The notes: generated from the letters alone by a model not told the origin. Shown: positions 1 to 22,263, counted from the first letter of the stretch. The stretch is DNA of 64,000 nucleotides from an uncultured Alphaproteobacteria bacterium (GCA_902521465.1 CABYRL010000002.1:58777-122776); one strand, 5' to 3'. Program-made: numbers and translations.

Positions 1-192
1 AGAGTTTATAATTTGCTCAGTACTATGACTCTTGAGTGCCAAATGCTAGCAAGAGCATGTGGTAAGACAAATATTCACTCACTTGAGCCAGAAGATCTAG
101 CTGCATTAACAATGGAGTCATCAGCAATGGCTAAAGTTCCATTAGCTGGTACAGATTTAACAGTAGGTGTAGATAACTACCACTCAATTTAG
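1..192 (+). CDS. mgsC: N-methylglutamate synthase subunit C (GlxD, FMN-binding glutamate synthase family), 3' end only
   Basis: Not in ORF track. Frame 1 reads RVYNLLSTMTLECQMLARACGKTNIHSLEPEDLAALTMESSAMAKVPLAGTD...HSI* (TAG 190-192). ARACGK..H.LEPEDL.ALT.E..AMA.VPLAGT is the characteristic MgsC/GlxD C-terminus; gmaS is 1.1 kb away. Confidence 0.85.
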   Translation, partial: RVYNLLSTMTLECQMLARACGKTNIHSLEPEDLAALTMESSAMAKVPLAGTDLTVGVDNYHSI

Positions 193-201
193 GAGAGTAT
201 T

Positions 202-678
202 ATGGTTAAAAAGAAAGTTACAAAAAAGAAATCAACTTCTGCAAAATCAAAAAAACCTACTAAGTCAAAAGGTTATCAAGTTGTAGGTGGGGCTAAATTA
301 AAAGATAAGGAAATTAAAACATCAAGAGAAAAAATGATTGGCCAGCATATTGGCTATCGATATGATGTTAACTTAATTCCTGATTATAAGCACTTAACGC
401 CATTTCTAAAACAATATATCGAAATTATGGGTTGGGATGACTTAAATTGGTTAGAGGACATCCATATGGGTTTCGAAGGTGATACCCCTGCTGTGTTTGA
501 CAGAAATGCAAACGCTTGGATAACTTTACCAAAGAAGATTAAACTTCCAAAAAACCAACAAGATAGAGATATGTTAGCTAGAGAACTTTTAATTAAGTTT
601 CAAATGTCACCTAATCATCCCTTGGTACAGTTAAAAAGAACATACGCTAAGGGCGAGAACTTTAAGTTAGTTGAGTAA
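202..678 (+). CDS. Hypothetical protein with Lys-rich N-terminal tail, coupled to mgsC
   Basis: 158-aa ORF; AGGAG RBS overlaps the mgsC stop; globular-looking Trp/Asp-rich core (GWDDLNWLEDIHMG); followed by a terminator hairpin. Confidence 0.75.
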   Translation: MVKKKVTKKKSTSAKSKKPTKSKGYQVVGGAKLKDKEIKTSREKMIGQHIGYRYDVNLIPDYKHLTPFLKQYIEIMGWDDLNWLEDIHMGFEGDTPAVFDRNANAWITLPKKIKLPKNQQDRDMLARELLIKFQMSPNHPLVQLKRTYAKGENFKLVE

Positions 679-1287: not shown

Positions 1288-2595
1288 TTAACAATCTAGA
1301 GTTGTTTCTCTTTCCCAATTAGAAAGGTGTTTATTAAAAGTACCCCAATCTTGATTTTTTAGTTTGACATAGCTATTAACTAAATCATCACCAAAACCTG
1401 CTCTAATGATTTTTGATTTATCAAAATCACGTATTGCATCAAGAAGATTTAATGGCAATTTCTTTACTTTTCCAGCCTTGTGACCTTCTGTGTACATATT
1501 AATATCTAATCTTTTACCAGGGTCTCTTTTATTATTTAAACCGTCCAAACCTAAAAGTAAAATACCTGCTTGAAGTAAATAAGGATTTGTAGCTCCATCC
1601 ATTAATCTCAATTCAAATCTTCCTGCTCCAGGAACTCTAACCATGTGTGTTCTGTTGTTACCTGCCCAAGTAATCGAACTTGGTGACCAAGTTGCACCTG
1701 ATGTTGTAACACTACCGTTGATTCTTTTATATGAGTTTACAGTTGGATTAAAAACAGCAGCCATTTTGTCCGCACTTTCCATTATTCCACCTAAGAAATT
1801 GTAACCAGTTTTGGATAAACCTAATTCATCTTTTTTATCTAAAAACATATTTTTTTTGCCAGATTTATCCCAAATAGAAATATGACAATGACATCCATTG
1901 CCTGTTAAATTTGTGAAAGGTTTGGGCATGAAAGTCGCCCTTAATGAATGTTTTTCAGCAATAGATTTGACCATGAATTTAAAAAAAGCATGTCTATCTG
2001 CAGTTACTAAACAATCTGAAAAATCCCAGTTCATTTCAAATTGACCATTCGCATCCTCATGGTCGTTTTGGTAAGGTTTCCATCCAAGTGAGATCATTGA
2101 GTCACATATTTCAGTAATAACATCATATCTTCTCATTAATGCAGAGGAGTCATAGCATGGTTTTGCTTGCGTATCCCTTTGATCTGATAAAGAAGTCCCA
2201 TCTTCATTAACTAGAAAAAATTCACACTCAACACCTGACTTCATATAAAGATTTTTTTTAGCTGCTTTTTCTATTTGTCTTTTTAAGGCTATTCTTGGTG
2301 AGGTTTCTACTGGTTTACCATCCATAAACAAATCTGAGGCAACCCAAGCTATTTCTTTATTCCAAGGAAGCTGGATAACACTATCACCATCAGGCATACC
2401 AAACATATCAGAGTCAGCTGGAGACATATCAAGCCATGTTGCAAAACCAGCAAATCCAGCACCTTCAGATTGAATTTCATCTATAGCTGTTGCAGGTACA
2501 AGCTTTGATCTGAGCACTCCAAATAAATCTACAAAGCTTACAAAAAAATATTTAACACCATTTTTTTTTGCAAATTGGTGAAGGTTAGTTGCCAT
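1288..2595 (-). CDS. gmaS: Gamma-glutamylmethylamide synthetase (GlnT / 'type III' GS family)
   Basis: GAGFAGFATW in place of GFDGSS, ECEFF, DHEDANGQFEMN, TGNGCHCH, SGATWSP, RFELRLMD; GAGGAG RBS; linked to mgsC. Confidence 0.85.
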   Translation of the reverse strand: MATNLHQFAKKNGVKYFFVSFVDLFGVLRSKLVPATAIDEIQSEGAGFAGFATWLDMSPADSDMFGMPDGDSVIQLPWNKEIAWVASDLFMDGKPVETSPRIALKRQIEKAAKKNLYMKSGVECEFFLVNEDGTSLSDQRDTQAKPCYDSSALMRRYDVITEICDSMISLGWKPYQNDHEDANGQFEMNWDFSDCLVTADRHAFFKFMVKSIAEKHSLRATFMPKPFTNLTGNGCHCHISIWDKSGKKNMFLDKKDELGLSKTGYNFLGGIMESADKMAAVFNPTVNSYKRINGSVTTSGATWSPSSITWAGNNRTHMVRVPGAGRFELRLMDGATNPYLLQAGILLLGLDGLNNKRDPGKRLDINMYTEGHKAGKVKKLPLNLLDAIRDFDKSKIIRAGFGDDLVNSYVKLKNQDWGTFNKHLSNWERETTLDC

Positions 2596-2828: not shown

Positions 2829-4106
2829 ATGACACTTGAAGAACTTGAATCGTACGTGATGATGCAAGCGAACGTCAGTATGGAAGCTTACTATTGGTGG
2901 TGTACTGCGTTAATGATTGCAATTCACGTAGGTTTCTTGATGTATGAAGTAGGATCGTCTCGTTTTAAAAATGCGGTCTCTTCAGCTACAAAAAACCTTT
3001 TAGCGTTCGCGTTTATGATACCAACTTTCTGGTTATTTGGTTGGTATATTTATCTTGCATTTCCAGAGGGATTTACTCCAATAGCACTTGACGGTTATGG
3101 TACTCCATGGAATGTATCTATGGGGCCAATGTTAAGTGACCAAGCCACAGGTGTTTTCTGGGCAGCATTTACATTATTTGCTTGTACTACAGCATCTATT
3201 TTTTCAGGATCTGTTCTTGAGAGAATAAGAATTAGCTCATTTACTTTCTTGGCTGTTGTTTTAGGGTCTGTAGCATGGATCTTAGCCGCTTCATGGGGCT
3301 GGCATCCTGATGGTTGGTTAGTAACACAATTCGGATATCATGATGTTGGAGCAGCTGGTGTTGTTCACATGGTAGCAGGTTGGTTTGCTTTCGGAGTTGT
3401 CTTAAACTTAGGACCTAGAGTTGGTAAATACAATGCTGACGGTTCTGCGAATGAGATTGAGGGTCATGATCTTCGTTTCTCATTTATTGGTCTTTTAATG
3501 ATTATTGTTGGTTTCTTCGGATTCCTCGGTGGTTGTTTAATCTGGGCAGGTGCAGAGTTTGGTGGATGGATAAACATTTACGGTGCTCCAGCAACATTAT
3601 CATCTTTCGCTTTCAATACCCTCATGGGTCTAGGTGGAGGAATGATTGGTGCATTCTGGATGAGTAAAGGTAACCCATTCTGGATGATGTCAGGTGGTCT
3701 TGCAGGTATATTCTCCTGTGCGTCTGGGCTTGATGTTTGGTATCCAGGATTAGCCTTTGTTCTCGGTTTTGTTGGCGGTGTTATAATTATTCCTGCGAAT
3801 AATTGGTTACACAGTGTTTTCAAGATTGATGATCCAGTAGGAGCTATATCTGTTCATGGAGTTGCCGGTATATGGGGTGTGATTGCAATGGGATTATTTG
3901 CTTCAGGCTATCCAGCATCTGGTGATATTCCTCCAACAAGTTTTGGTGGACAGTTAGTTGGATGTATAGTCATGTTCTTAGTAGGATTTGTGCCTGGTTA
4001 TGGTTTATCATTCATTATGAAAATGATGAATTGGTTACGTGTACCAGATGCAGTTCAAAAAGCAGGTATTGATAGCGCTGAGTTAAATCTCAAGGCATAT
4101 CAGTAA
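2829..4106 (+). CDS. amt: Ammonium/methylammonium transporter (Amt family)
   Basis: 425 aa, multi-TM; HD.GAAGVVH and D.VGAISVHG twin-His motifs; LRV..GID..E...AY C-terminus; AAGGAGG RBS. Confidence 0.95.
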   Translation: MTLEELESYVMMQANVSMEAYYWWCTALMIAIHVGFLMYEVGSSRFKNAVSSATKNLLAFAFMIPTFWLFGWYIYLAFPEGFTPIALDGYGTPWNVSMGPMLSDQATGVFWAAFTLFACTTASIFSGSVLERIRISSFTFLAVVLGSVAWILAASWGWHPDGWLVTQFGYHDVGAAGVVHMVAGWFAFGVVLNLGPRVGKYNADGSANEIEGHDLRFSFIGLLMIIVGFFGFLGGCLIWAGAEFGGWINIYGAPATLSSFAFNTLMGLGGGMIGAFWMSKGNPFWMMSGGLAGIFSCASGLDVWYPGLAFVLGFVGGVIIIPANNWLHSVFKIDDPVGAISVHGVAGIWGVIAMGLFASGYPASGDIPPTSFGGQLVGCIVMFLVGFVPGYGLSFIMKMMNWLRVPDAVQKAGIDSAELNLKAYQ

Positions 4107-4126
4107 CATATAAGGAAGGAGAAAAT

Positions 4127-4300
4127 ATGAATACATTTCCAGGACCTGAAAATAGTTGGGAAGGTGTGGACGCTTATTTCACTTATGCCAACAGTGAAGG
4201 TGCACTGATATTTTGGACCCTTTTTGTTATTGCTCTATGCGTGCTAGTCACTATGGCAACAGCAAGACACGAGTCTGATACTGCAAAAAAAACAAAATAA
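4127..4300 (+). CDS. 57-aa single-TM protein directly downstream of amt (below ORF-track cutoff)
   Basis: AAGGAAGGAG RBS, ATG at 4127; MNTFPGPENSWEGVDAYFTYANSEGALIFWTLFVIALCVLVTMATARHESDTAKKTK*; lies inside the amt transcript, before the terminator. Confidence 0.8.
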   Translation: MNTFPGPENSWEGVDAYFTYANSEGALIFWTLFVIALCVLVTMATARHESDTAKKTK

Positions 4301-4309
4301 TGTATAATT

Positions 4310-4335
4310 TAAGGCGGGGAATTATCCCCGCCTTA
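4310..4335 (+). terminator. Intrinsic terminator of the amt operon
   Basis: GC-rich hairpin TAAGGCGGGGA-ATTA-TCCCCGCCTTA. Confidence 0.8.
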
Positions 4336-4341
4336 TAATAA

Positions 4342-4512
4342 ATGGATTACAACACTTCAAATCTCTTTTTTCAAAATCTCATTCAATCAATAGCTGAAAA
4401 TAAACTAATAGCAGCAGTTATTTGGATTGCATTTATGATTTTTATTTTAAGAAAAATTGCAAAAAAAGATAACGAATTGATTTTAAAAAAGAAATTCTCT
4501 AGACATAAATAA
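4342..4512 (+). CDS. 56-aa putative single-TM protein (below ORF-track cutoff)
   Basis: MDYNTSNLFFQNLIQSIAENKLIAAVIWIAFMIFILRKIAKKDNELILKKKFSRHK*; fills the gap between the terminator and the GATase gene; hydrophobic helix then basic tail; no clear RBS. Confidence 0.55.
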   Translation: MDYNTSNLFFQNLIQSIAENKLIAAVIWIAFMIFILRKIAKKDNELILKKKFSRHK

Positions 4513-4521
4513 ACAGAAAAC

Positions 4522-5262
4522 TTGAATTTACTAATTATCAGTGGCATGGATCAAAACCATGATAATGAACATGTTAAATCAAATTCTTCTTATCAATATA
4601 GTTTTTTTGAAGAAATTATTAAAAAGCAAAATCCCCTCTCAAATATCTCGGTTTATAAACCTTACATTGAGGATGTAAATAAATTTAGTTTTGAAGATTA
4701 CGATGCCTTTTTATGGACCGGAGGTCTCGGTAATATTTATGATGACAATGATCACAATAAAAATCAGTTGAAGATATTTGATAGAATAGCAACTCTAGAA
4801 AGACCAATTTGGGGAAGTTGTTGGGGTCTTCAAGTGGTTGTAACAGCATTTGGAGGAAAAATATCAAGTTCTATGAGTCCAGAGTTTGGATATTCTGAAA
4901 AAATAAAAATTATAAAAAATCATTTTGTTTATAAAAATAAAAAAAATTTATTTACTGCCCCTGGTCATCATTATGATAGTTTAGAAACTCTTCCCAAGGA
5001 CTTTGACATAATTTCTGAGAATAATCATTCTATTCAATCTATATGTCATAAAAAACAAAACATATTTTGTACTCAATATCATCCAGAACTACCATACAAC
5101 TATATCGGTAAATTAATGAGTTATTGGAAAAGAAATTATTTAAAGATTATGAGTGAAAATGAATTTGAAGCATTATTAAATAAATTACAAAGTTTTGAAA
5201 ATGAAGATCAATTTAACAGAGAACTTGAATTACTGAATTGGTTAGAAAATATTAAATTATAA
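4522..5262 (+). CDS. Class I glutamine amidotransferase-like protein (possible gamma-glutamyl-amide hydrolase)
   Basis: FLWTGG, GSCWGLQ nucleophile elbow, QYHPE (Cys-His-Glu triad); TTG start. Confidence 0.85.
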   Translation: MNLLIISGMDQNHDNEHVKSNSSYQYSFFEEIIKKQNPLSNISVYKPYIEDVNKFSFEDYDAFLWTGGLGNIYDDNDHNKNQLKIFDRIATLERPIWGSCWGLQVVVTAFGGKISSSMSPEFGYSEKIKIIKNHFVYKNKKNLFTAPGHHYDSLETLPKDFDIISENNHSIQSICHKKQNIFCTQYHPELPYNYIGKLMSYWKRNYLKIMSENEFEALLNKLQSFENEDQFNRELELLNWLENIKL

Positions 5263-5550
5263 TTATTTTTTGGTAGCGATCATAATTAGTGATAAAAAAA
5301 TCACTGCTAAAAGACCACAAAAAACTGCTGCAAAAAAAATAGTGGATATAATGAACATAAATACTTTTATATCTGTAATCTTACTAAAAAAAAGTGGTGT
5401 CTGTAAAAACTGATCAACAGTGAGTATAAAAGTTAAAACAAAAAATCCCATCATAAAGCCTCTTTTGTAAAATTTAATCCATGATTTTTTAAAGTAATCA
5501 ATATTCATAATTTGAAGTAGTAATTTTATATTATGGTCATATAATTTCAA
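5263..5550 (-). CDS. Small two-TM hypothetical membrane protein (start uncertain)
   Basis: 95-aa ORF with two hydrophobic segments; fills the gap; its stop abuts the GATase stop. Confidence 0.55.
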   Translation of the reverse strand: MKLYDHNIKLLLQIMNIDYFKKSWIKFYKRGFMMGFFVLTFILTVDQFLQTPLFFSKITDIKVFMFIISTIFFAAVFCGLLAVIFLSLIMIATKK

Positions 5551-5584
5551 TTCGATAAGATTTAAATTTTAGGAGGAGACTAAC

Positions 5585-6982
5585 TTGGGTCAATATTTTG
5601 AAAATTTTAAAGACGCCTTACCTGATGTAAAAAAAGTTAGAAAAATTAAAAAGGATTTAGAAAAAAAAGGCGTAAAATACATTTATTCTAATTGGATTGA
5701 TTTTCTGGGTAGTCCAAAAACCAAGCCTATGCCTATATCTGATTTTGAGGATCTTTGTATGGGTAAAGGCCCTCAATTTGCTGTTCATTCTGTTTCCTTT
5801 GTTCCAGAATTAACTCCAGCAGATAATGATCAAATCCCTGTGCCAGATTTGGATAGTCTCGTTATATGTCCATGGGATAAAACATGTGCATGGGTTTTTG
5901 CAGATTTATATTGGAATGACAAACCTTACGATGTTTGCCCAAGAATGACGTTAAAAAAACAAATAAAGGAAAGCGCTAAATCTGACTTGAAATTTTTTGT
6001 TGGTATCGAACCCGAATTTTTCTTAATGAAGTGGGAGGGCGACAAACCAGTTAAAGCAATTGATAGAGATCCTATAAATTTGAGAAGACAAGCTTTTGGG
6101 TATGACTCAGAGTACTCAATAGATGGAATGCATTTTTTAAAAGAAATAATAGATATTTTAAATAATGATTTGAAATGGGATCTCCATGATGTCGTTGCTG
6201 AGGGCGCATATGGCCAGTATGAATTAGATTTCGGTTACACAGATATTTTAGGGATGGCTGATAGATTTGTATTTTTAAGAGTATTACTCAAGGAAGTTGC
6301 AAAAAAATATGGATATTTTGTATCATTTATGCCAAAGACAACTATTAGTGATTGGAGAGCTGGTGCTCACATTAATCATAGTGTGGCATCAATTAAAAAG
6401 AAAAATAATAACATATATAAGAATGGGAATAATTTCTCTGATAAAGCCTACAATGCTGTCGCTGGAATTTTAAAACATGGAGCAGCGATTACAGCTCTAG
6501 CGTGTCCAACTGTTAACTCATATAACGGATTTGTTCCTACAGTTGAGGGCCTTGATGGTGGCCGTCATACATGGGCTCCTACACACATGACATACGGCAG
6601 TAATAATAGATCAGCTATGATAAGACTACCACAAAATAGATATTGTATAGAAAATAGGGCATCTGATTTAACTCAAAATCCTTATTTAACTTTTTCTTTA
6701 TTAGCCGCAGCTGTTACAGAGGGTATCGACAAAAAAATGAAGCCCCCAAAACCAACTAATAAAAGTCTTTATGATTTGACCGAGAAAGAAAAAAAAGAGG
6801 TTACTACACTGCCAAGAAATTTATTAGAGGCAGTAGACGCTTTCGCTGCTGATAAATTAACTAAAAAAGTTTTTTCTGAGGCTATGATAAACAATTTTAT
6901 TGGATATAAATATGATGAGTGGTCTAGATATCATACAACTACAACTGATTGGGAAATCAAAGAATATCTAAAGTTATTTTAA
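5585..6982 (+). CDS. Atypical glutamine synthetase-family ligase (second GlnT-like paralog)
   Basis: GIEPEFF, EGAYGQYELDF, GAHINHS, NNRSAMIRLP, IENRASD; AGGAGGAG RBS and TTG start; amine- and glutamate-site residues differ from GlnA. Confidence 0.9.
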   Translation: MGQYFENFKDALPDVKKVRKIKKDLEKKGVKYIYSNWIDFLGSPKTKPMPISDFEDLCMGKGPQFAVHSVSFVPELTPADNDQIPVPDLDSLVICPWDKTCAWVFADLYWNDKPYDVCPRMTLKKQIKESAKSDLKFFVGIEPEFFLMKWEGDKPVKAIDRDPINLRRQAFGYDSEYSIDGMHFLKEIIDILNNDLKWDLHDVVAEGAYGQYELDFGYTDILGMADRFVFLRVLLKEVAKKYGYFVSFMPKTTISDWRAGAHINHSVASIKKKNNNIYKNGNNFSDKAYNAVAGILKHGAAITALACPTVNSYNGFVPTVEGLDGGRHTWAPTHMTYGSNNRSAMIRLPQNRYCIENRASDLTQNPYLTFSLLAAAVTEGIDKKMKPPKPTNKSLYDLTEKEKKEVTTLPRNLLEAVDAFAADKLTKKVFSEAMINNFIGYKYDEWSRYHTTTTDWEIKEYLKLF

Positions 6983-7999
6983 TTGATTAGTAAAGAGGAA
7001 CTACATAAATACCAATTAAATAATTTCAAATTAAAATCAGGCGACATAATAGATTTACAATTAAATTATTTAGCATTTGGGAAACTAAATTCTGACAAAT
7101 CAAATGTAATTTTATTTCCTACTAGGTATGCTGGTACACATCTTGAGCAAGGATATCTGATTGGTAATAATTTTCCCATAGACCCAGATAAATATTTCAT
7201 CATTATTCCAAATATGTTTTGTAATGGTGTTTCCTCCTCACCCAGTAATACAGAAATACCCTTTAATGGACCTAATTTTCCCTTAATTACAATATATGAT
7301 AACGTGCAAGCACAATACACTCTTCTAAAAGAAATATTTAACATAGAAAAAATTAAATTAGTTATAGGTTGGTCAATGGGAGGACAACAAGCATTTGAGT
7401 GGGCGTCATATTTTCCAGACATGGTAGAAAATATGATATCTATGTGTGGTCATGCTAAAACCACAGAGCATACATATGTATTTTTAGAGGGCGTATATGC
7501 TGCTTTGACTTCAGATCCAAACTGGAATTCTGGAAATTATGAAAAACAACCTCAAAATGGAAAAACAACAATGGCAAGAGTATGGGCTGGATGGGCGCAT
7601 GGGCAAGACTGGTTTAGGGAAAAAAAATATATCGATGATGGTTACAAAGATGCAAAAGAAGTTTTGGATAAACTTTGGAATAGAATTTATTATCGTAAGG
7701 ATGCAAATGATTTATTAGCGATGATAAGAACTTGGCAAGAGCACGACATAAGCAACAATAATAAATTTAATAATCAATTTGATAAAGCTCTTAACTCTAT
7801 TACTGCGCGATGTATTTTAATGCCAGGTAAAAATGATTTATACTTCCCCCCAGAGGATAATGAAATTGAATTAAAAAATATTAAAAATGGTGAATTACGT
7901 ATCATTCCTTCAAGCTACGGTCACTATGCTGGAGCAGGTAAGTCCAAAGAAGATTTAAATTTTGTTAATGATGCTATAAAGGATATATTGATTACTTAA
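6983..7999 (+). CDS. Alpha/beta hydrolase, homoserine O-acetyltransferase (MetX)-like
   Basis: GWSMGGQQA nucleophile motif, DLYFPP, YGHYAG; TTG immediately follows the ligase stop (TAATTG). Confidence 0.85.
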   Translation: MISKEELHKYQLNNFKLKSGDIIDLQLNYLAFGKLNSDKSNVILFPTRYAGTHLEQGYLIGNNFPIDPDKYFIIIPNMFCNGVSSSPSNTEIPFNGPNFPLITIYDNVQAQYTLLKEIFNIEKIKLVIGWSMGGQQAFEWASYFPDMVENMISMCGHAKTTEHTYVFLEGVYAALTSDPNWNSGNYEKQPQNGKTTMARVWAGWAHGQDWFREKKYIDDGYKDAKEVLDKLWNRIYYRKDANDLLAMIRTWQEHDISNNNKFNNQFDKALNSITARCILMPGKNDLYFPPEDNEIELKNIKNGELRIIPSSYGHYAGAGKSKEDLNFVNDAIKDILIT

Positions 8000-9188
8000 C
8001 AATAATTTTAAAATATTTTTTTTTACCAATCTTGAGTATTTTTTTGTTATAAGACTTGTCAATCGTAAGATTAATATCGTTAATTTGGTAGTCGTCAATC
8101 TTTATACCACCACCCTCAATTAGCCTTTTTGCTTCAGATTTTGATGAGACCGTACTATTGGATGTTAGTGTATCTATGAGTTTCGAGTCTATTTTAAAGT
8201 TAATTTCATCAATATTATCGTAAGAATTATTTTCAAAAATTGATCTTGCTTTTTCTTCAGCCTCTTGTGCTGAGCTTTCTGAGTGACAATCTGTTGTCAC
8301 TAAATATGCTAATTTTTTTTTCGCATTATTGATATCTTCTTTAATTAATATTTTTATTTCTTCTTTATCTAAATCACTAAAAATAAGTAATAGTTTTTCC
8401 ACATCATTATCATCCACATTTCTCCAATACTGATAGAAATCATAAGAATTGTATTTATTTTGATCTATCCAGACAGCGCCTTGCTCGGTCTTGCCCATCT
8501 TCTTACCTGTAGAGGTAGTTAAAAGAGGTGTAGTAAGACCAAAAGCATCTTTTTTGTTTATTTTTGATATAATTTCCATACCCAAAACGATATTACCCCA
8601 TTGATCCGAGCCGCCAATTTGCAACTCACAATTTTCATGTTTATTTAAGTGAAGAAAATCATAACTTTGGAGTATCATGTAATTAAATTCTAAAAATGAT
8701 AATGATTGCTCTCTTTTAAGTCTCTCTTTTACACTCTCAAATGTAAGCATACGATTGATTGAAACTTGACTTCCCAAATCTCTCAATAACTCTATGTAAT
8801 TTAATTTATCAAGCCATTGATCATTATTTATAAATTTTATATTTTCTTTGAATTCTCTAAAATAATGTTCAAATATTCTTTTAAAATTCTCAATATTTTT
8901 TTGGATTGTTTCGTAAGTTAAAATTTGTCTTGAGGCATCTTTGCCAGAGGGGTCACCAATTTTTGTTGTACCTCCACCTAATAGTACTATAGCCTGATGA
9001 CCATGTTTGATTAGAGTCTTAATAGCTCTTAATTGAACAAGACTACCGGCATGTAATGCATCAGCAGTAGCATCAAATCCAATATAAAAAATAATTTTTT
9101 TCTTATTGAGTAAATTATTAAGTTCTATTTCATTAGTGCATTGATTGAATAGATTTCTATCTTTAAATAACTGTATATAATCTATCAT
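7992..9188 (-). CDS. tyrS: Tyrosyl-tRNA synthetase
   Basis: YIGFDATADALHAGS, GGGTTKIGDPSGK, QIGGSDQWGNI, KMGKT, S4-like C-terminus. Confidence 0.97.
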   Translation of the reverse strand: MIDYIQLFKDRNLFNQCTNEIELNNLLNKKKIIFYIGFDATADALHAGSLVQLRAIKTLIKHGHQAIVLLGGGTTKIGDPSGKDASRQILTYETIQKNIENFKRIFEHYFREFKENIKFINNDQWLDKLNYIELLRDLGSQVSINRMLTFESVKERLKREQSLSFLEFNYMILQSYDFLHLNKHENCELQIGGSDQWGNIVLGMEIISKINKKDAFGLTTPLLTTSTGKKMGKTEQGAVWIDQNKYNSYDFYQYWRNVDDNDVEKLLLIFSDLDKEEIKILIKEDINNAKKKLAYLVTTDCHSESSAQEAEEKARSIFENNSYDNIDEINFKIDSKLIDTLTSNSTVSSKSEAKRLIEGGGIKIDDYQINDINLTIDKSYNKKILKIGKKKYFKIIVK

Positions 9189-12117: not shown

Positions 12118-13575
12118 ATGGCAGCTACAGATCAAACAATTAAACAAGTAAACACACTGGGTAGTAGTGATTACAAATATGGTTTTTCTACTGAAGTAGA
12201 CGAGATCCGACCTCCAAAAGGTTTAAATGAAGAAATAATAAAATTCATATCTGCCCAAAAAGATGAACCAGAGTGGATGCTTGAATGGAGACTAAATGCA
12301 TTTAAAGTCTTCAACAAATTACCGAAGCCTCAATGGGCTAAATTGAATATTCCAGAAATTGATTATCAAGATTGTTATTATTACTCAATACCTAAAAGTT
12401 TAAAAGATAAACCAAAGTCACTAGATGAAATAGACCCAGAAATACTAAAAACTTACGAAAAACTTGGTATTCCATTAAAAGAACAAAAAATGTTATCTGG
12501 TATAGCTGTTGATGCTGTTTTCGACTCCGTATCAGTTGCCACGACATATAAAAAACAACTGAGTGACTTAGGTATAATATTTTGTTCAATTTCTGAGGCA
12601 GTAAAAACTCACCCAGAATTAGTAAAAAAATATCTAGGAAGTGTAATTCCAGTATCAGATCATTCTTTCGCAGCATTAAACTCAGCCGTTTTCACTGATG
12701 GATCGTTTATTTACATTCCTGAGGGAGTAAGGTGCCCAGTTGAATTATCAACATATTTTAGAATTAATGCAATGAATACAGGTCAATTCGAAAGAACGCT
12801 TATCATTGCTGATAAAGACAGTTATGTGAGTTACCTAGAAGGCTGTACTGCACCAATGAGAGATGAAAACCAACTTCATGCTGCTAATGTAGAGTTAGTT
12901 GCCCTAGATAATGCTGAAATTAAGTATTCAACAGTTCAAAACTGGTACCCAGGAGATAAAGAGGGTAAGGGAGGCATCTACAACTTTGTAACCAAAAGAG
13001 GTGCCTGCAGAGGGAAAAATTCTAAAATATCTTGGACTCAAGTCGAGACAGGATCTGCAATTACATGGAAATATCCAAGCTGCATTTTACAAGGAGATAA
13101 CTCTAAAGGAGAATTTTATTCAGTAGCCATAACTAACAATATGCAACAAGCTGACACTGGCACAAAAATGATACACATTGGTAAAAACACGTCTTCTAAA
13201 ATCATATCAAAAGGCATCTCAGCTGGAAAAGCTAATAATACATATAGAGGCCTTGTAAATATTTTGTCGAAAGCCAAAAATGCGAGAAATTTTACTCAAT
13301 GTGACTCTCTATTAATAGGTAATCAATGTGGAGCTCACACAGTTCCATATATAGAGTCAAGTAATTCCGACTCAATGGTTGAGCACGAGGCCACAACCTC
13401 AAAAATTAACGAAGATCAATTATTTTACTGTCAGCAAAGAGGATTAAACAGTGAAGATGCAGTGGGGTTAATTGTGAATGGTTTTTGTAAAGAGGTACTT
13501 CAACATTTACCAATGGAGTTTGCTGTTGAAGCTCAAAAATTAGTCGCAATTAGCTTAGAGGGAAGCGTTGGATAA
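12118..13575 (+). CDS. sufB: Fe-S cluster assembly protein SufB
   Basis: [43 protein letters not shown]. Confidence 0.98.
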
Positions 13576-14321
13576 TGTTAGAAATTAAAAACCTTCATGT
13601 CTCTATTGAAGAAAAAAAAATAATTAAAGGTTTGGATTTATCTATTAATAAAGGTGAAGTTCACGCACTTATGGGCCCCAACGGTTCTGGTAAAAGTACA
13701 CTCTCTTACGTGCTATCCGGTAAAGATAAATATGAAATAAATGATGGAACAATAGATTACAATGGTAAAAATTTATTGGAATTAGATGTTGATGAAAGAG
13801 CGAACGAGGGATTATTTCTTGCATTTCAATATCCAATGGAGATACCTGGTGTGCAAACTTCATTTTTTTTGAAAACAGCAATCAATTCTAAAAGAAAATA
13901 TTTAGGTCAAAGTGAAATGGACGCATTGGAATTTGCTAAATTAATGAAATCAAAAGCAGAAGAATTGAATATAAGTACTGAAATGCTCAAAAGAGATCTA
14001 AATGTTAACTACTCTGGTGGTGAAAAAAAGAAACAAGAAATTTTACAGATGTCTATGTTAAGTCCCAAAATGGCTATTTTAGATGAAACAGACTCCGGTT
14101 TAGATATTGATGCCTTAAGAATTGTCTCTGAGGGAGTAAATAAATTAAGAAATAGTGATAATTCTTTCTTAGTTATAACTCATTATCAAAGACTTTTAAA
14201 TTATATAAAGCCTGATTTTGTTCATATTATTGCAGATGGTAAAATCGTAAAATCTGGTGATTACTCTTTAGCTTTAGAGCTAGAAGAAAAAGGTTACGAA
14301 GAGATATCTCAAACTGCTTAA
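13575..14321 (+). CDS. sufC: Fe-S cluster assembly ATPase SufC
   Basis: GPNGSGKST, LAFQYPMEIPGV, SGGEKKK, LDETDSGLDID. Confidence 0.97.
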   Translation: MLEIKNLHVSIEEKKIIKGLDLSINKGEVHALMGPNGSGKSTLSYVLSGKDKYEINDGTIDYNGKNLLELDVDERANEGLFLAFQYPMEIPGVQTSFFLKTAINSKRKYLGQSEMDALEFAKLMKSKAEELNISTEMLKRDLNVNYSGGEKKKQEILQMSMLSPKMAILDETDSGLDIDALRIVSEGVNKLRNSDNSFLVITHYQRLLNYIKPDFVHIIADGKIVKSGDYSLALELEEKGYEEISQTA

Positions 14322-15421
14322 TGGAACTTGTATTAAATTTAGACAAGATACAATCTGAAAGTGTATCTCAATATGCTAAAGACATCTTAGATAATCAAAA
14401 CCCATATAAAAATTTTAAAATTGAAAATTATAAATACGCTCAACTTCATAAAGATGTCAAATCCGAAATCTTACTTAGAGATATAAATTTTTCTGAACTA
14501 TTAGATAATACTAAAAATATTACCTCTTCTATTTCAAATCCATTTGACTTAACAGCTAATTTAAATCTCTGGAATTACAATAATGAAGATAGCTTTTTTA
14601 GAGTTTCTTCTTTAGTAAAGAGGGAAACTAAATCTGTAAATTTAGATACATTTGATGAAAGAAATTTATTTTTAGATATTTCTCAAATAAATGAGAACAT
14701 ACATATATCTAAATCCTCTACAAACGAAGTCAATCTTATTATTTTTAATAGCAAATCAAATGATGAGTACCCTAAATCAATTTTCTTAGATTTATCTAAT
14801 AATTCTAAGTTAAATGTAGTTCACTTTAATGTTTCAAATAATAAATCTTTTTTATACTTTGAGACTAATTTACAAGACAACTCATATTTAAATTTTGTTT
14901 CTTTTCAATCAGATAATATCCATACAAGAAACGAGTTTTATGCTTCATTAAATCAAGAGTGTAACTTTGATTTATATGGTCTTAATATCAACAATTATGG
15001 TGTAAATGACAATTATTCTTTTATACAACATTTAAAACCCTCTTCATCAAGTAGAGAAGTTTTTAAATCTATTGTTGAAAAGGGCGCTATTACAAACTTT
15101 CAAGGAAAGATATATGTTGACTCTATTGCTCAGAAAACTGATGGATATCAAATGAGTAGATCATTGCTTTTAGATGACATATCGAAAGCCAATAATAAAC
15201 CAGAACTTGAAATTTATGCAGATGATGTAAAATGTAGTCACGGGTCTACTGTCTCCAAATTAGATGACGAGCAAATTTATTATTTTAAGTCCAGAGGTAT
15301 TGATAGCGAAATAGCTAAAAAAATATTAAAAAAAGCATTTATTGTTGAGATTATTGAGTCAATTAAAGACGATATGTTAAAGAATTATTCAAATGAGTTA
15401 ATTGAAAGTTTATTATCATGA
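14321..15421 (+). CDS. sufD: Fe-S cluster assembly protein SufD (divergent N-terminus)
   Basis: FQGKIYV, AQKTDGYQ, KPELEIYADDVKCSHGST. Confidence 0.93.
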   Translation: MELVLNLDKIQSESVSQYAKDILDNQNPYKNFKIENYKYAQLHKDVKSEILLRDINFSELLDNTKNITSSISNPFDLTANLNLWNYNNEDSFFRVSSLVKRETKSVNLDTFDERNLFLDISQINENIHISKSSTNEVNLIIFNSKSNDEYPKSIFLDLSNNSKLNVVHFNVSNNKSFLYFETNLQDNSYLNFVSFQSDNIHTRNEFYASLNQECNFDLYGLNINNYGVNDNYSFIQHLKPSSSSREVFKSIVEKGAITNFQGKIYVDSIAQKTDGYQMSRSLLLDDISKANNKPELEIYADDVKCSHGSTVSKLDDEQIYYFKSRGIDSEIAKKILKKAFIVEIIESIKDDMLKNYSNELIESLLS

Positions 15422-16626
15422 ATAATATTAAATTAGATTTTCCAATTTTAGATAAAAAGATCAGAGACAAAGCTATTACTTATCTTGACTCTGCAGCAAG
15501 CACTCAGAAACCCAAACAAGTAATTAACTCTATTTCTGAATTTTTAGAAAACTCTTATGAAAATGTTCATAGAGGAATGAATTCACTTAGTATAGATGCT
15601 ACAGATTTATATGAAAAATCTAGAGATGTAGCAAAAAGTTTTATTAATTCTAATTCTACAAATGAGATAATTTTTACAAGAGGAGCTACTGACTCTATAA
15701 ATATTATTGCTAATTCATTATCTGAACATCTTAAAGAGGGCGATAAGATTGTTGTAACTGAATTAGAACATCACTCAAATTATTTGCCTTGGATGAACTT
15801 ATGTAAAAAATTAGGTTTAGAATTAAAAATAATTCCTATTTCTAAAGATGGCATTTTATCTGAAGACGATATCATTAATAATTGTGATGACTCCACAAAG
15901 GTTCTCTCTTTAACACACATGTCAAATGTAACTGGCCAAATACTTGATATTAAAAAGATTAAAAAATCAATTAATAAAGATACTTATGTTGCCGTTGATG
16001 GTTGTCAATCAATAGCACACTTAAAAATTGACGTAAAAGATTTGGATTGTGATTTTTACTCTTTTTCATCTCATAAACTTTATGGTCCATCTGGTATTGG
16101 AATTTTGTATGGTAAAGAAGATATTTTAAATAAATTAAATCCTCCAACACTTGGAGGAGGGATGATCAATGAAGTTTCATCTAATGATTTTTCCTATGCT
16201 ATGTTACCCAATAAATTTGAACCGGGTACGCCTTCAATTGAGGCAGCAATTGGCTTTAAAACTGCTATGGAATATTTAAATAATAATAATTACCAAGACT
16301 ATTTTCTGAATGAAAAAAAACTCAGATCTACATTAATTAAAGCTTTACGTGAATTCAAAGAAGTAGATATATATGGCTCTAATGAAGATGGAAATGCTAC
16401 ATCCATTGTTTCTTTTAATATTAAAAACCAAAATTTTAATGATATTGCCACTTTTCTTGACCAGTATGGAATTATGATTAGAGGAGGTCACCATTGTTGC
16501 CAACCATTTATGAAAAAGTTAGGTATCCCTGGTTCTTGCAGAGTCTCTTTTGGTATTTATAACGATCTTAATGATATTGATCATTTTATAGACTCTTTGA
16601 AAAAAACTCTAAAACTTCTTCAATAA
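15418..16626 (+). CDS. sufS: Cysteine desulfurase SufS
   Basis: YLDSAASTQKP, SSHKLYGP (PLP Lys), RGGHHCCQP. Confidence 0.96.
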   Translation: MNNIKLDFPILDKKIRDKAITYLDSAASTQKPKQVINSISEFLENSYENVHRGMNSLSIDATDLYEKSRDVAKSFINSNSTNEIIFTRGATDSINIIANSLSEHLKEGDKIVVTELEHHSNYLPWMNLCKKLGLELKIIPISKDGILSEDDIINNCDDSTKVLSLTHMSNVTGQILDIKKIKKSINKDTYVAVDGCQSIAHLKIDVKDLDCDFYSFSSHKLYGPSGIGILYGKEDILNKLNPPTLGGGMINEVSSNDFSYAMLPNKFEPGTPSIEAAIGFKTAMEYLNNNNYQDYFLNEKKLRSTLIKALREFKEVDIYGSNEDGNATSIVSFNIKNQNFNDIATFLDQYGIMIRGGHHCCQPFMKKLGIPGSCRVSFGIYNDLNDIDHFIDSLKKTLKLLQ

Positions 16627-16629
16627 GCT

Positions 16630-17019
16630 ATGGATAATAAAACACTCTCTGACTTTATGCCAAAAGTAAGTTCTGAAGGTGAGATTACTTACGGAGAAAA
16701 ATTGTCATCACAGTCAGTGACATTAACAAATGATCATATAATCAAAGTTCTCACAGATATAAAAGATCCTGAAATGGATATGAATATTTATGATCTTGGT
16801 TTAATTTACGACATATCAATAGATAATTTTAACAATATTAAAATTATCATGACACTGACAACAGTTAACTGTCCAGTTGCTGATAGTTTTCCATTAGAGG
16901 TCGCTAAAAAAGTTCATGAACTAAATGATGTAGGACAAGTCATTATAAAACTAACCTTTCAACCACCATGGAATAAAGATATGATGAGTGAAAATGCAAA
17001 GTTAGCTTTAGGTTTTTAG
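16630..17019 (+). CDS. sufT: DUF59/SufT-type Fe-S assembly protein
   Basis: DPE...NIYDLGLIY, MTLTTVNCP, FQPPW..DMMSE. Confidence 0.9.
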   Translation: MDNKTLSDFMPKVSSEGEITYGEKLSSQSVTLTNDHIIKVLTDIKDPEMDMNIYDLGLIYDISIDNFNNIKIIMTLTTVNCPVADSFPLEVAKKVHELNDVGQVIIKLTFQPPWNKDMMSENAKLALGF

Positions 17020-21336: not shown

Positions 21337-22263
21337 ATGAATTATTATTTAGCACCAATGATGGGTTACACAGACTGCTATTTTAGAAGTTTAGTGGAAA
21401 ACATTTATGGAAATAGTGTAACTACTTTTTCTGAAATGATAGTGGATAAAGCAATCATCCATAATGAGACCAAAACAATAACCAAGCATTTTTTAAAAAA
21501 TAATAAAAGCGCCATTCAAATTGCAGGCTCAGATCCTGAAGAAATTAAAAGAACAATAAATATTTTAAATAAAGTAGATATTATTAAACATGTAAATTTT
21601 AATTTAGGGTGCCCAAGTTCTAGAGTCCAAGAAAATATGCTTGGTTTAGCTTTAACCCAAAAGTATGACTTAGTAAAAAAATGTTTATATGAATTGATCA
21701 AATATAATAAAGATGTATCGGTAAAATGTAGACTTGGTTTAGGTATGGATGAGGATAAGAGTTATATTTTTGATTATCTTAAATTGTTTAATGAAATAGG
21801 AATTAAAAAAGTATTTATACATTGTAGAAATGGTGTTTTGAACTTAGATACCAAAAAAAATAGAACAATTCCGAAAATTAATTACAATTTATTTTTAGAG
21901 TGTTGTGATCAATTTCCTGAAATGGAACTTATTCCTAACGGTGAGGTTAATGATTTAGCAACCTTTAAATTTTTTCAGTCAAAAAATATTACTCAATTTA
22001 TGATTGGTAGGCAATTTGCGAAAGACGCTTTTTTTTTAGAAAAATTAGATCTTGAGAATATCAAAAAGAAGACAACTTCAATAATTAATACAATAAATGA
22101 ATTAGAGCATTACAAATATTTAAATATTAATTTATTAAAAAAAAGTATATTCACTGCACTTAGTAACATATCAAATTCCAAAAAAGTAAAAAAAGAAATC
22201 TCAGTTATTGATAATTATAGTGGCTTACTAAATTATTTTGAGAGGAATGCCATTTGGAGTTAA
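21337..22263 (+). CDS. dusA: tRNA-dihydrouridine synthase, DusA-like
   Basis: LAPMMGYTD..FR, QIAGSDP, NFNLGCPSSRVQ, VSVKCRLG, NGEV, MIGR. Confidence 0.8.
   Translation: MNYYLAPMMGYTDCYFRSLVENIYGNSVTTFSEMIVDKAIIHNETKTITKHFLKNNKSAIQIAGSDPEEIKRTINILNKVDIIKHVNFNLGCPSSRVQENMLGLALTQKYDLVKKCLYELIKYNKDVSVKCRLGLGMDEDKSYIFDYLKLFNEIGIKKVFIHCRNGVLNLDTKKNRTIPKINYNLFLECCDQFPEMELIPNGEVNDLATFKFFQSKNITQFMIGRQFAKDAFFLEKLDLENIKKKTTSIINTINELEHYKYLNINLLKKSIFTALSNISNSKKVKKEISVIDNYSGLLNYFERNAIWS

What the first reader, a model, noticed from the sequence alone, without database searches (positions are those of the whole stretch)
4522..7999. Candidate undescribed amine-glutamylation module: GATase-like hydrolase, atypical GS ligase and MetX-like hydrolase
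Seen: next to the methylamine genes sit a Cys-His-Glu amidotransferase-like gene, a second GlnT-like ligase, and a Ser-Asp-His hydrolase abutting the ligase (TAATTG junction). Established: GS-like ligase plus GATase-like hydrolase pairs protect and deprotect amines in putrescine (PuuA/PuuD), isopropylamine (IpuC/IpuF) and aniline (AtdA1/AtdA2) catabolism. Inference: a pathway for another small organic amine or amide; no oxidase is in the window, so the substrate and middle step are unknown.
Basis: partly seen in the sequence, partly recalled or inferred. Interest (0 to 1): 0.7.

Follow-up and report, generated by a model that had tools for sequence, protein, structure and literature searches.

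The report
Conserved orphan amine-ligase and esterase pair
A marine HIMB59-type bacterium carries a glutamine-synthetase-like ligase welded to an acetyl-esterase-like hydrolase; the pair recurs across many abundant ocean bacteria, has no known function and probably belongs to an undescribed small-amine pathway, while the neighbouring amidotransferase is only a local neighbour.

Summary
The three genes are real and sit at the stated coordinates, with intact catalytic residues, next to gmaS, an Amt transporter and, just upstream of the window, mgsABC-like genes.

They are not one conserved trio. The ligase (LIG, 5585-6982) and the hydrolase (HYD, 6983-7999) form the conserved unit:
- They abut (TAATTG).
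- Metatranscriptome contigs cross their junction.
- HYD lies in 40 of 48 LIG loci from other lineages (SAR324, Thioglobus, SAR116, sponge symbionts, roseobacters).

The GATase (4522-5262) is different:
- It occurs in 0 of those 48 loci.
- It evolves fast.
- A conserved minus-strand membrane ORF separates it from LIG.

LIG is neither GlnA nor GmaS. It scores below both curated cut-offs and lacks the ammonium-binding Asp50' and the GmaS base Asp177. The arginine that clamps the glutamate alpha-carboxylate has moved (NSYKR to NSYNG, together with Gly to Arg258). This swap covaries perfectly across 80 relatives.

HYD is closest to the acetyl esterases MekB and CgHle, not MetX.

The "missing oxidase" exists elsewhere. 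LIG usually sits with two Rieske oxygenases, glyoxalase I, an EutQ-like cupin, a D-2-hydroxyacid dehydrogenase and an Lrp regulator. In three lineages it also sits with NMG-pathway genes.

Both substrates remain unknown. Verdict: partly supported; a new variant of a known kind.

The parts
5585..6982 (+). LIG: GS-family ATP-dependent carboxylate-amine ligase, a sister group of GmaS. Metal, ATP and acyl-phosphate residues are intact (E142, E144, E206, E213, H262, R342, R347, E356, R358). Ala66 replaces Asp50'. Val204-Ala205 replace GmaS Asp177-His178. The glutamate-clamping Arg is lost (NSYNG, 311-315) and Trp257-Arg258 are gained.
   Evidence: GmaS residue roles from PMC7948447
6983..7999 (+). 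HYD: MetX-fold alpha/beta serine hydrolase of the PRK07581 / MekB-CgHle acetyl-esterase subfamily. Triad Ser131, Asp285, His314. Its start abuts the LIG stop (TAATTG). Its 3' end overlaps the convergent tyrS by 8 nt.
   Evidence: RNA contigs cross the junction
4522..5262 (+). Stand-alone class-I glutamine-amidotransferase-like protein (Cys100, His187, Glu189). It is a clade-restricted neighbour and not part of the conserved core. A role as a gamma-glutamyl-amide hydrolase is possible but untested.
5263..5508 (-). Conserved 81-aa ORF with two predicted membrane helices on the opposite strand. It separates the GATase from LIG.
1288..2595 (-). gmaS (gamma-glutamylmethylamide synthetase; TIGR03105 at 646 bits, above the cut-off). 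Context gene.
2829..4106 (+). Divergent Amt-family transporter, followed by a 57-aa membrane ORF (4127-4300). Both are very highly represented in metatranscriptomes. Context gene.
4310..4336 (+). Strong hairpin (11-bp GC-rich stem, -22 kcal/mol, z = -4.75) after the amt operon, where RNA depth collapses. It insulates the downstream genes.
1..168 (+). C-terminal end of an mgsC/glxD-like gene. In sister genomes the full operon is GS-like (489 aa), then glxB-, glxC- and glxD-like genes.

Best explanation
Shown:
- The functional unit is the two-gene operon LIG-HYD, not a three-gene module.

Inferred:
- LIG is an ATP-dependent amide synthetase of the glutamine-synthetase family. It forms an acyl-phosphate, most probably on a glutamate-like acid held by a relocated arginine.
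- LIG then traps a small cationic amine that is neither ammonia nor, probably, methylamine.
- HYD is a serine esterase/amidase of the MekB-CgHle type. It cleaves one ester, thioester or amide bond in the same pathway. It sits in the operon slot that PuuD-type gamma-glutamyl hydrolases occupy next to related ligases.
- In larger genomes, Rieske oxygenases oxidise the LIG product next to the nitrogen. The nitrogen then stays on the amino acid.
- The carbon skeleton leaves as a 2-oxoaldehyde or 2-hydroxyacid, handled by glyoxalase I and a D-2-hydroxyacid dehydrogenase, all under an Lrp/AsnC regulator.
- The streamlined HIMB59-type genome keeps only the LIG-HYD core, parked beside gmaS, mgsABC-like genes and amt in a nitrogen-scavenging island.
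- The GATase is a lineage-specific neighbour with an independent promoter.

Unknown: the identity of both the acid and the amine.
For: Pairing of LIG and HYD:
- HYD lies in 40 of 48 non-HIMB59 LIG loci, and directly downstream (within 300 nt) in 27 of 47.
- TAATTG junction.
- Metatranscriptome contigs span the junction in three runs.

LIG chemistry:
- Catalytic residues are intact, Asp50' is replaced by Ala, and GmaS Asp177/His178 by Val/Ala (PMC7948447).
- LIG is below the GlnA and GmaS cut-offs. Canonical glnA plus glnE lie elsewhere in the window.
- The Arg relocation covaries perfectly: 64 relatives have the canonical state, 16 the swapped state and none a mixed state.
- One swapped relative is paired with a Peptidase_C26 hydrolase. 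This argues that glutamate is still the acid.

HYD:
- NF005757 at 425 bits, above its cut-off of 332.
- Foldseek TM 0.90 to MekB (5e4y, 5efz) and to the C. glutamicum acetylester hydrolase (5d6o).

Context of LIG in the 48 loci:
- RieA 29, Lrp 27, GloA 23 (138.7 bits, cut-off 120), RieB 20, D-2-hydroxyacid dehydrogenase 19, EutQ-like cupin 17.
- A 52%-identical relative sits in a Rieske-ligase-RidA arrangement.
- gmaS and/or mgsABC are inserted inside or beside the pair in Thioglobus and SAR324, and lie beside it in HIMB59.
- A Rhodococcus GS-like gene has a PuuD-like gene in the same downstream slot.
Against: - No substrate has been identified.
- HIMB59 and SAR116 carry LIG-HYD without any Rieske or GloA gene nearby. 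A ligase plus a hydrolase alone looks futile unless another step lies elsewhere in the genome.
- In 7 or 8 loci LIG occurs without HYD.
- MekB-type enzymes are O-acetyl esterases, not known amidases.
- The AF2 monomer model of LIG was too poor (pLDDT 63.5) to check where Arg258 points.
- The contig-based RNA evidence cannot exclude DNA carry-over.
Confidence: 0.5

Rival explanations
1. GATase, LIG and HYD form one three-gene glutamylation module. LIG gamma-glutamylates an amine. The GATase is the PuuD/IpuF/AtdA2-type deprotecting hydrolase, and HYD is an accessory step.
For: - The trio is syntenic in every HIMB59-clade genome examined.
- The GATase has an intact triad and weak Peptidase_C26 and GGP1 similarity.
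- Relatives of LIG are paired with C26 hydrolases.
Against: - The GATase is absent from all 48 LIG loci outside the clade.
- It is separated from LIG by a conserved opposite-strand gene.
- It evolves far faster than LIG.
- It has lower RNA depth.
- Its distant homologues are not next to GS-like genes.
Confidence: 0.2
2. The LIG-centred cluster is an alternative glutamate-mediated route for methylated amines such as dimethylamine. It would serve lineages that have tmm, tdm and gmaS but lack dmmDABC. LIG amidates the secondary amine and Rieske oxygenases demethylate the amide to gamma-glutamylmethylamide or glutamine.
For: - LIG is the sister of GmaS, with a more hydrophobic amine pocket (Asp177/His178 to Val/Ala).
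- gmaS and mgsABC lie inside or beside the LIG-HYD operon in Thioglobus, SAR324 and HIMB59.
- Lidbury et al. 2017 report that dmmDABC is missing from SAR11 and from abundant marine Gamma- and Deltaproteobacteria (PMC5520151).
- The Rieske partners resemble N-demethylases (GbcA, Stc2, CntA, NdmA).
Against: - It does not explain glyoxalase I, the D-2-hydroxyacid dehydrogenase or HYD.
- SAR116 and roseobacters, which can carry dmmDABC, also have LIG.
- HIMB59 lacks the Rieske genes near LIG.
Confidence: 0.1
3. LIG does not use L-glutamate. The Arg swap re-tools the acid site for another carboxylate, for example one lacking the alpha-carboxylate (GABA, 5-aminolevulinate) or one with an inverted alpha-centre. 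HYD takes over or resolves the activated acyl group.
For: - The RhGmaS Arg288 equivalent is Gly315 and the Gly231 equivalent is Arg258. Both are invariant in the family, and aromatic residues Phe171, Tyr209 and Trp257 are added.
- GabT- and GabD-like genes and guanidino-acid genes lie nearby in several loci.
Against: - The clean covariation suggests the clamp was relocated rather than lost.
- A swapped relative sits with a gamma-glutamyl-hydrolase-type Peptidase_C26.
- There is no structural or biochemical test.
Confidence: 0.15
4. The adjacency has no shared pathway. LIG is a spare or low-affinity glutamine synthetase, and HYD is an unrelated housekeeping esterase or MetX paralogue.
For: The GS fold and all catalytic metal and ATP residues are retained. 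HYD belongs to the MetX fold.
Against: - The pairing is conserved across at least five deep lineages.
- Asp50' is absent.
- Scores are below the GlnA and MetX cut-offs.
- Canonical glnA and glnE are present.
- HYD is nearest to acetyl esterases.
Confidence: 0.05

Closest known systems
GmaS, gamma-glutamylmethylamide synthetase (TIGR03105; PDB 7CQL, 9QUR)
   Same: - GS-I fold, and the best-scoring curated model and solved structure.
- Ala in place of Asp50'.
- Conserved Tyr173, Glu206, Glu213 and Lys47', equivalent to RhGmaS Tyr147, Glu179, Glu186 and Lys30'.
- Genomic association with mgsABC.
   Different: - About 31-33% identity; 358.7 bits against a cut-off of 469.6.
- The base Asp177 becomes Val204 and His178 becomes Ala205.
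- The glutamate clamp Arg288 becomes Gly315 and Gly231 becomes Arg258.
- The flap is longer.
- A true gmaS is present as a separate gene in the same window.
GS-like ligase plus hydrolase 'protect/deprotect' pairs: PuuA/PuuD, IpuC/IpuF, AtdA1/AtdA2, NpaA1/NpaA2. The aromatic systems add a Rieske dioxygenase.
   Same: - A GS-family ligase with a hydrolase gene immediately downstream.
- An oxygenase acts between the two steps: a P450 in Ipu, Rieske enzymes in Atd and Npa.
- LIG is widely linked to Rieske oxygenases.
   Different: - The hydrolase partner is a MetX-fold alpha/beta esterase, not a class-I GATase/Peptidase_C26.
- The Rieske partners are alpha-only, of the GbcA or phthalate type.
- Glyoxalase I and a D-2-hydroxyacid dehydrogenase are added.
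- The arginine clamp is relocated.
MekB (Pseudomonas veronii) and CgHle (Corynebacterium glutamicum) acetyl esterases (PDB 5E4Y, 5EFZ, 5D6O)
   Same: - Same NCBIfam subfamily (NF005757).
- 31-34% identity, TM 0.90.
- Ser-Asp-His triad.
   Different: MekB works with a Baeyer-Villiger monooxygenase on ethyl acetate. HYD is tied to a GS-like ligase, and its substrate is unknown.
N-methylglutamate pathway (GmaS, MgsABC, MgdABCD)
   Same: Glutamate-mediated amine capture. mgsABC-like and gmaS genes are physically interleaved with LIG-HYD in Thioglobus and SAR324 and lie adjacent in HIMB59.
   Different: No mgdABCD genes lie in these loci. Rieske oxygenases take the place of an oxidase. LIG is not GmaS.

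Membership tests
Glutamine synthetase GlnA (EC 6.3.1.2) | Scores above the curated TIGR00653 cut-off | tested here: not met
   274.1 bits against 429.15. The window's true glnA scores 668.3.
Glutamine synthetase GlnA (EC 6.3.1.2) | Asp50' ammonium-binding and deprotonating residue (FDGSS loop) | tested here: not met
   LIG has FAVHS (Ala66), invariant in the family.
Glutamine synthetase GlnA (EC 6.3.1.2) | Metal, ATP and gamma-phosphate residues | tested here: met
   E142, E144, E206, E213, H262, R342, R347, E356 and R358 are conserved.
GmaS (TIGR03105) | Scores above the curated cut-off | tested here: not met
   358.7 bits against 469.6. The neighbouring gmaS scores 646.2.
GmaS (TIGR03105) | Asp177 (methylamine deprotonation) and Arg288 (glutamate clamp) of RhGmaS | tested here: not met
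   Val204 and Gly315 occupy these positions in LIG. Residue roles are from PMC7948447.
PuuA/PuuD-type gamma-glutamylation module | A class-I GATase/Peptidase_C26 hydrolase co-conserved with the ligase | tested here: not met
   The GATase is in 0 of 48 LIG loci outside the HIMB59 clade. Within the clade it is a separate transcription unit.
PuuA/PuuD-type gamma-glutamylation module | L-glutamate is the acyl donor | tested here: inconclusive
   The clamp Arg is relocated, not simply lost: 64 canonical, 16 swapped and 0 mixed among relatives. A swapped relative is paired with a Peptidase_C26. No biochemical test was possible.
PuuA/PuuD-type gamma-glutamylation module | An oxidase or oxygenase acts on the glutamylated intermediate | tested here: inconclusive
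   None is present in the 64-kb window. Rieske oxygenases lie next to LIG in 29 of 48 other loci (RieA) and 20 of 48 (RieB).
MetX homoserine O-acetyltransferase | Scores above the TIGR01392 cut-off | tested here: not met
   149 bits against 500.
MetX homoserine O-acetyltransferase | Complements methionine auxotrophy; uses acetyl-CoA | not testable with these tools
   This needs an experiment. The motif after the catalytic His is GHYAG rather than the MetX GHDAF. The MetX motif is quoted from my own recollection.
MekB/CgHle esterase subfamily (NF005757, PRK07581) | Scores above the curated cut-off, has the Ser-Asp-His triad, and is nearest to the solved acetyl esterases | tested here: met
   424.8 bits against 332. 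Ser131, Asp285 and His314. TM 0.90 to 5e4y, 5efz and 5d6o.
Class-I glutamine amidotransferase | PF00117 domain with a Cys-His-Glu triad | tested here: met
   E = 6.4e-19. Cys100, His187 and Glu189.

The most novel reading that the evidence does not exclude
LIG, with its relocated arginine clamp, its Rieske partners and an esterase-type hydrolase replacing the usual PuuD-type enzyme, defines an unrecognised ligase-dependent oxidative pathway. It would act on a small aliphatic amine, such as an alpha-aminoketone or amino-alcohol or a methylated amine like DMA. It would operate in some of the most abundant marine heterotrophs (SAR324, Thioglobus/SUP05 relatives, SAR116, HIMB59) and feed nitrogen into the glutamate/NMG network.
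Probability: 0.25. Interest if true: 0.8.

Novelty: new variant of a known kind. Interest (0 to 1): 0.6.

Why it matters
GS-like 'amine capture' enzymes decide which organic nitrogen compounds oligotrophic bacteria can use.

- This ligase family is a single tight clade. There is a gap from 525 to 330 bits before the next relatives.
- It occurs in several dominant ocean lineages and is transcribed in situ.
- It is repeatedly wired to the methylamine (NMG) genes and to Rieske oxygenases, yet no function is assigned.

Identifying its substrate would add a route to the marine dissolved-organic-nitrogen cycle. It might also bear on the reported gap in methylated-amine degradation. The perfectly covarying arginine swap is a clean, testable handle on substrate binding in the GS superfamily.

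Tried and rejected
- **Homarine (homABCDER) and trigonelline pathways.** These were checked as an explanation for methylamine-linked ring cleavage. The hom genes belong to different families and the paper mentions neither a GS nor a Rieske enzyme. The trigonelline paper is not held.
- **Literature searches.** Searches for the gene combination, and of the HIMB59/AEGEAN-169 literature, found nothing on this cluster.
- **Transporter clues.** The roseobacter ABC transporter is only weakly TauABC/SsuA-like, with no informative solved relative. It does not name the substrate.
- **AF2 model of LIG.** The monomer model was low-confidence at the active-site loops (pLDDT 63.5), so it was not used for fold search or pocket reasoning.
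- **Promoter and terminator scan.** It gave no more sites than shuffled sequence. Only the amt hairpin was supported, by folding.
- **Contexts of distant GATase homologues.** They gave no consistent partner.
Full report
**Source and layout**

The window is a low-GC (about 30%) alphaproteobacterial genome of the HIMB59/AEGEAN-169 type. Single-cell genomes AG-9xx and 'HIMB59-LRMED' MAGs carry the ligase at 92-100% identity with the same gene order.

The region reads, in order:

| Coordinates | Strand | Feature |
|---|---|---|
| 1-168 | + | mgsC-like C-terminus |
| 202-678, 726-1280 | +, - | two unknown ORFs |
| 1288-2595 | - | gmaS |
| 2829-4106 | + | divergent Amt |
| 4127-4300 | + | 57-aa membrane ORF |
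| 4310-4336 | + | strong hairpin |
| 4342-4513 | + | 56-aa ORF |
| 4522-5262 | + | GATase |
| 5263-5508 | - | 81-aa membrane ORF |
| 5585-6982 | + | LIG |
| 6983-7999 | + | HYD |
| 7992-9188 | - | convergent tyrS |

In sister genomes the DNA just upstream of the window holds a fourth GS-like gene (489 aa) followed by glxB-, glxC- and glxD-like (NMG-synthase-type) genes. The canonical glnA (668 bits on TIGR00653) lies 17 kb away next to glnE. LIG is therefore not the cell's glutamine synthetase.

**Observation check**

- GATase: Cys100, His187, Glu189.
- HYD: Ser131, Asp285, His314.
- The TAATTG stop/start junction is present.
- The TTG start of LIG has an AGGAGG 7 nt upstream.
- The TTG start of the GATase is supported because its orthologues begin with the first beta-strand MKxLxIxG.

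**Which genes belong together**

I ran tblastn across 80 genome loci and then across 48 LIG loci outside the HIMB59 clade. These cover SAR324, Thioglobus-type and other Gammaproteobacteria, SAR116, sponge symbionts, Kiloniellaceae, a Pedosphaera MAG and roseobacter plasmids.
- HYD is in 40 of the 48 loci, and directly downstream in 27 of 47 informative ones.
- The GATase is in none.
- Within the HIMB59 clade the GATase keeps only 47-62% identity where LIG keeps 84-96%.
- The GATase family has only 66 detectable members, nearly all from this clade. The few distant homologues are not next to GS-like genes.

Independent gene calls also find the minus-strand ORF between the GATase and LIG.

Metatranscriptome contigs show three things:
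- Depth is very high over amt and its small ORF, and collapses at the hairpin (fold).
- Depth over the GATase is low.
- Contigs cross the LIG/HYD junction in three runs.

The conserved unit is therefore LIG-HYD. The trio is a clade-specific arrangement.

**What LIG is**

Its best curated model is TIGR03105 (GmaS type) at 358.7 bits, below the 469.6 cut-off. GlnA scores 274 against a cut-off of 429. The best solved relatives are GmaS 9QUR (219 bits) and 7CQL (198 bits), on a par with archaeal GS.

I aligned LIG to RhGmaS and GS, taking residue roles from the RhGmaS structure paper (PMC7948447).
- All metal, ATP and acyl-phosphate residues are kept.
- Asp50' is Ala66, as in GmaS.
- The GmaS base Asp177-His178 is Val204-Ala205.
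- Asp202 and Asp215 replace Gln175 and Asn188, so the amine site stays acidic.
- The arginine that clamps the substrate alpha-carboxylate (NSYKR; RhGmaS Arg288) is Gly315 (NSYNG). The glycine equivalent to RhGmaS Gly231 is Arg258, preceded by Trp257.

In a library of 50%-identity representatives the LIG family stands apart: 525 bits, then 330 bits for the next full-length relative. Of the 80 sequences where both motifs could be read, 66 came from those representatives and 14 from the LIG homologues.
- 64 have Gly/Ala at 258 together with Arg at 315.
- 16 have Arg at 258 together with Gly at 315.
- None is mixed.
- P0311, read by eye, is also swapped.

This clean covariation reads as relocation of the clamp, not its loss. 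One swapped relative (P0311, 40% identity) sits with a Peptidase_C26 hydrolase, an NCS1 permease and an AsnC regulator. A glutamate-like acid therefore remains the most likely acyl donor, though it must be bound differently.

**What HYD is**

- It passes the NF005757 (PRK07581) cut-off, at 425 bits against 332.
- It fails the MetX model, at 149 bits against 500.
- An AF2 model (pLDDT 77.7, pTM 0.82) matches the acetyl esterase MekB (5e4y, 5efz) and the C. glutamicum acetylester hydrolase (5d6o) at TM 0.90 and 31-34% identity. These rank ahead of the MetX and CefG acyltransferases.

In a Rhodococcus plasmid a related GS-like gene has a PuuD-like hydrolase overlapping its 3' end. HYD occupies the same operon slot.

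**The wider cluster**

Clustering the neighbours, annotating them and counting them gave these partners of LIG in the 48 loci:

| Partner | Loci of 48 | Note |
|---|---|---|
| RieA | 29 | GbcA/CntA/Stc2-like alpha-only Rieske oxygenase |
| Lrp/AsnC regulator | 27 | |
| Glyoxalase I | 23 | 138.7 bits, cut-off 120 |
| RieB | 20 | phthalate-dioxygenase-like Rieske oxygenase |
| D-2-hydroxyacid dehydrogenase | 19 | |
| EutQ-like cupin | 17 | |

- RieA-GloA is often divergent from Lrp-LIG-HYD.
- In Thioglobus the operon reads LIG-(mgsABC)-gmaS-HYD.
- In SAR324, mgsABC-like genes follow RieA-GloA.
- In HIMB59, gmaS and mgsABC lie within 6 kb.
- A 52%-identical relative sits in a Rieske-ligase-RidA arrangement.
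- Roseobacter plasmids place a TauABC/SsuA-like ABC transporter inside or beside the pair. Agmatinase-family, MttB-family and BCCT genes lie nearby.

None is in this window.

**Mechanism (inference)**

1. LIG captures a small cationic amine as an amide on a glutamate-like acid.
2. Rieske oxygenases hydroxylate next to the nitrogen. This keeps the nitrogen on the amino acid and releases a 2-oxoaldehyde or 2-hydroxyacid skeleton.
3. GloA and the dehydrogenase handle that skeleton.
4. HYD performs the pathway's hydrolytic step, on an ester, thioester or amide.

HIMB59 and SAR116 keep only LIG-HYD. This leaves open what stands between ligation and hydrolysis in those genomes.

Candidate substrates were considered but none was tested: aminoacetone or amino-alcohols, DMA, 5-aminolevulinate- or GABA-type acids, and aminosulfonates. 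The DMA idea connects to the reported absence of dmmDABC from SAR11 and from abundant marine Gamma- and Deltaproteobacteria (PMC5520151). It does not explain GloA or HYD.

**Verdict**

The ligase-hydrolase pair is a real, conserved and undescribed module of the 'GS-like amine capture' kind. The GATase is not a core member.
- The module is a new variant of a known kind, with a distinctive relocated arginine clamp and an esterase-type partner.

Noticed in passing
window 1-26000, plus L010 1-4608: Four GS-family paralogues lie within about 30 kb of a streamlined genome. They are a 489-aa GS-like gene in an operon with glxB/C/D-like genes (just upstream of the window), gmaS, LIG, and the canonical glnA next to glnE (22254-24578).
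   Followed up: partly
window 2829-4336: The divergent Amt scores below the curated AmtB and marine-subtype cut-offs. Together with a 57-aa single-helix ORF (4127-4300) it is by far the most represented stretch in metatranscriptome contigs (depth 200-600, against about 10 for its neighbours). Depth collapses at a strong hairpin (-22 kcal/mol).
   Followed up: partly
window 5263-5508 (-) and 4342-4513 (+): Two small membrane ORFs flank the GATase. The 81-aa minus-strand ORF is conserved through the clade (43-100% identity) and is called independently in L088. The 56-aa ORF is seen only in close relatives.
   Followed up: partly
L031, L032 (SAR116/Puniceispirillales) compared with the window: LIG is 84-86% identical between HIMB59-type and SAR116 genomes, while the adjacent HYD is only 58-59% identical and the flanks differ. 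This suggests lateral transfer or unusually strong constraint on LIG.
   Followed up: no
window 202-678 and 726-1280: Two conserved proteins have no Pfam or NCBIfam match: 158 aa with a lysine-rich N-terminus, and 184 aa. They sit between the mgsC-like gene and gmaS in all clade members.
   Followed up: no
window 7992-7999: The convergent HYD and tyrS genes overlap by 8 nt at their 3' ends, leaving no room for a terminator between them.
   Followed up: no
L092 (context of P0307): A 52%-identical LIG relative lies in a Rieske-ligase-RidA arrangement. Hydantoinase A/B genes, an FmdA/AmdA formamidase and an amide/urea-type ABC transporter lie nearby. This looks like a different flavour of the same ligase-oxygenase logic.
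   Followed up: no
window 12118-17019: A complete suf Fe-S assembly operon (sufB, sufC, sufD, sufS and downstream genes) follows mnmA. It is ordinary housekeeping.
   Followed up: no
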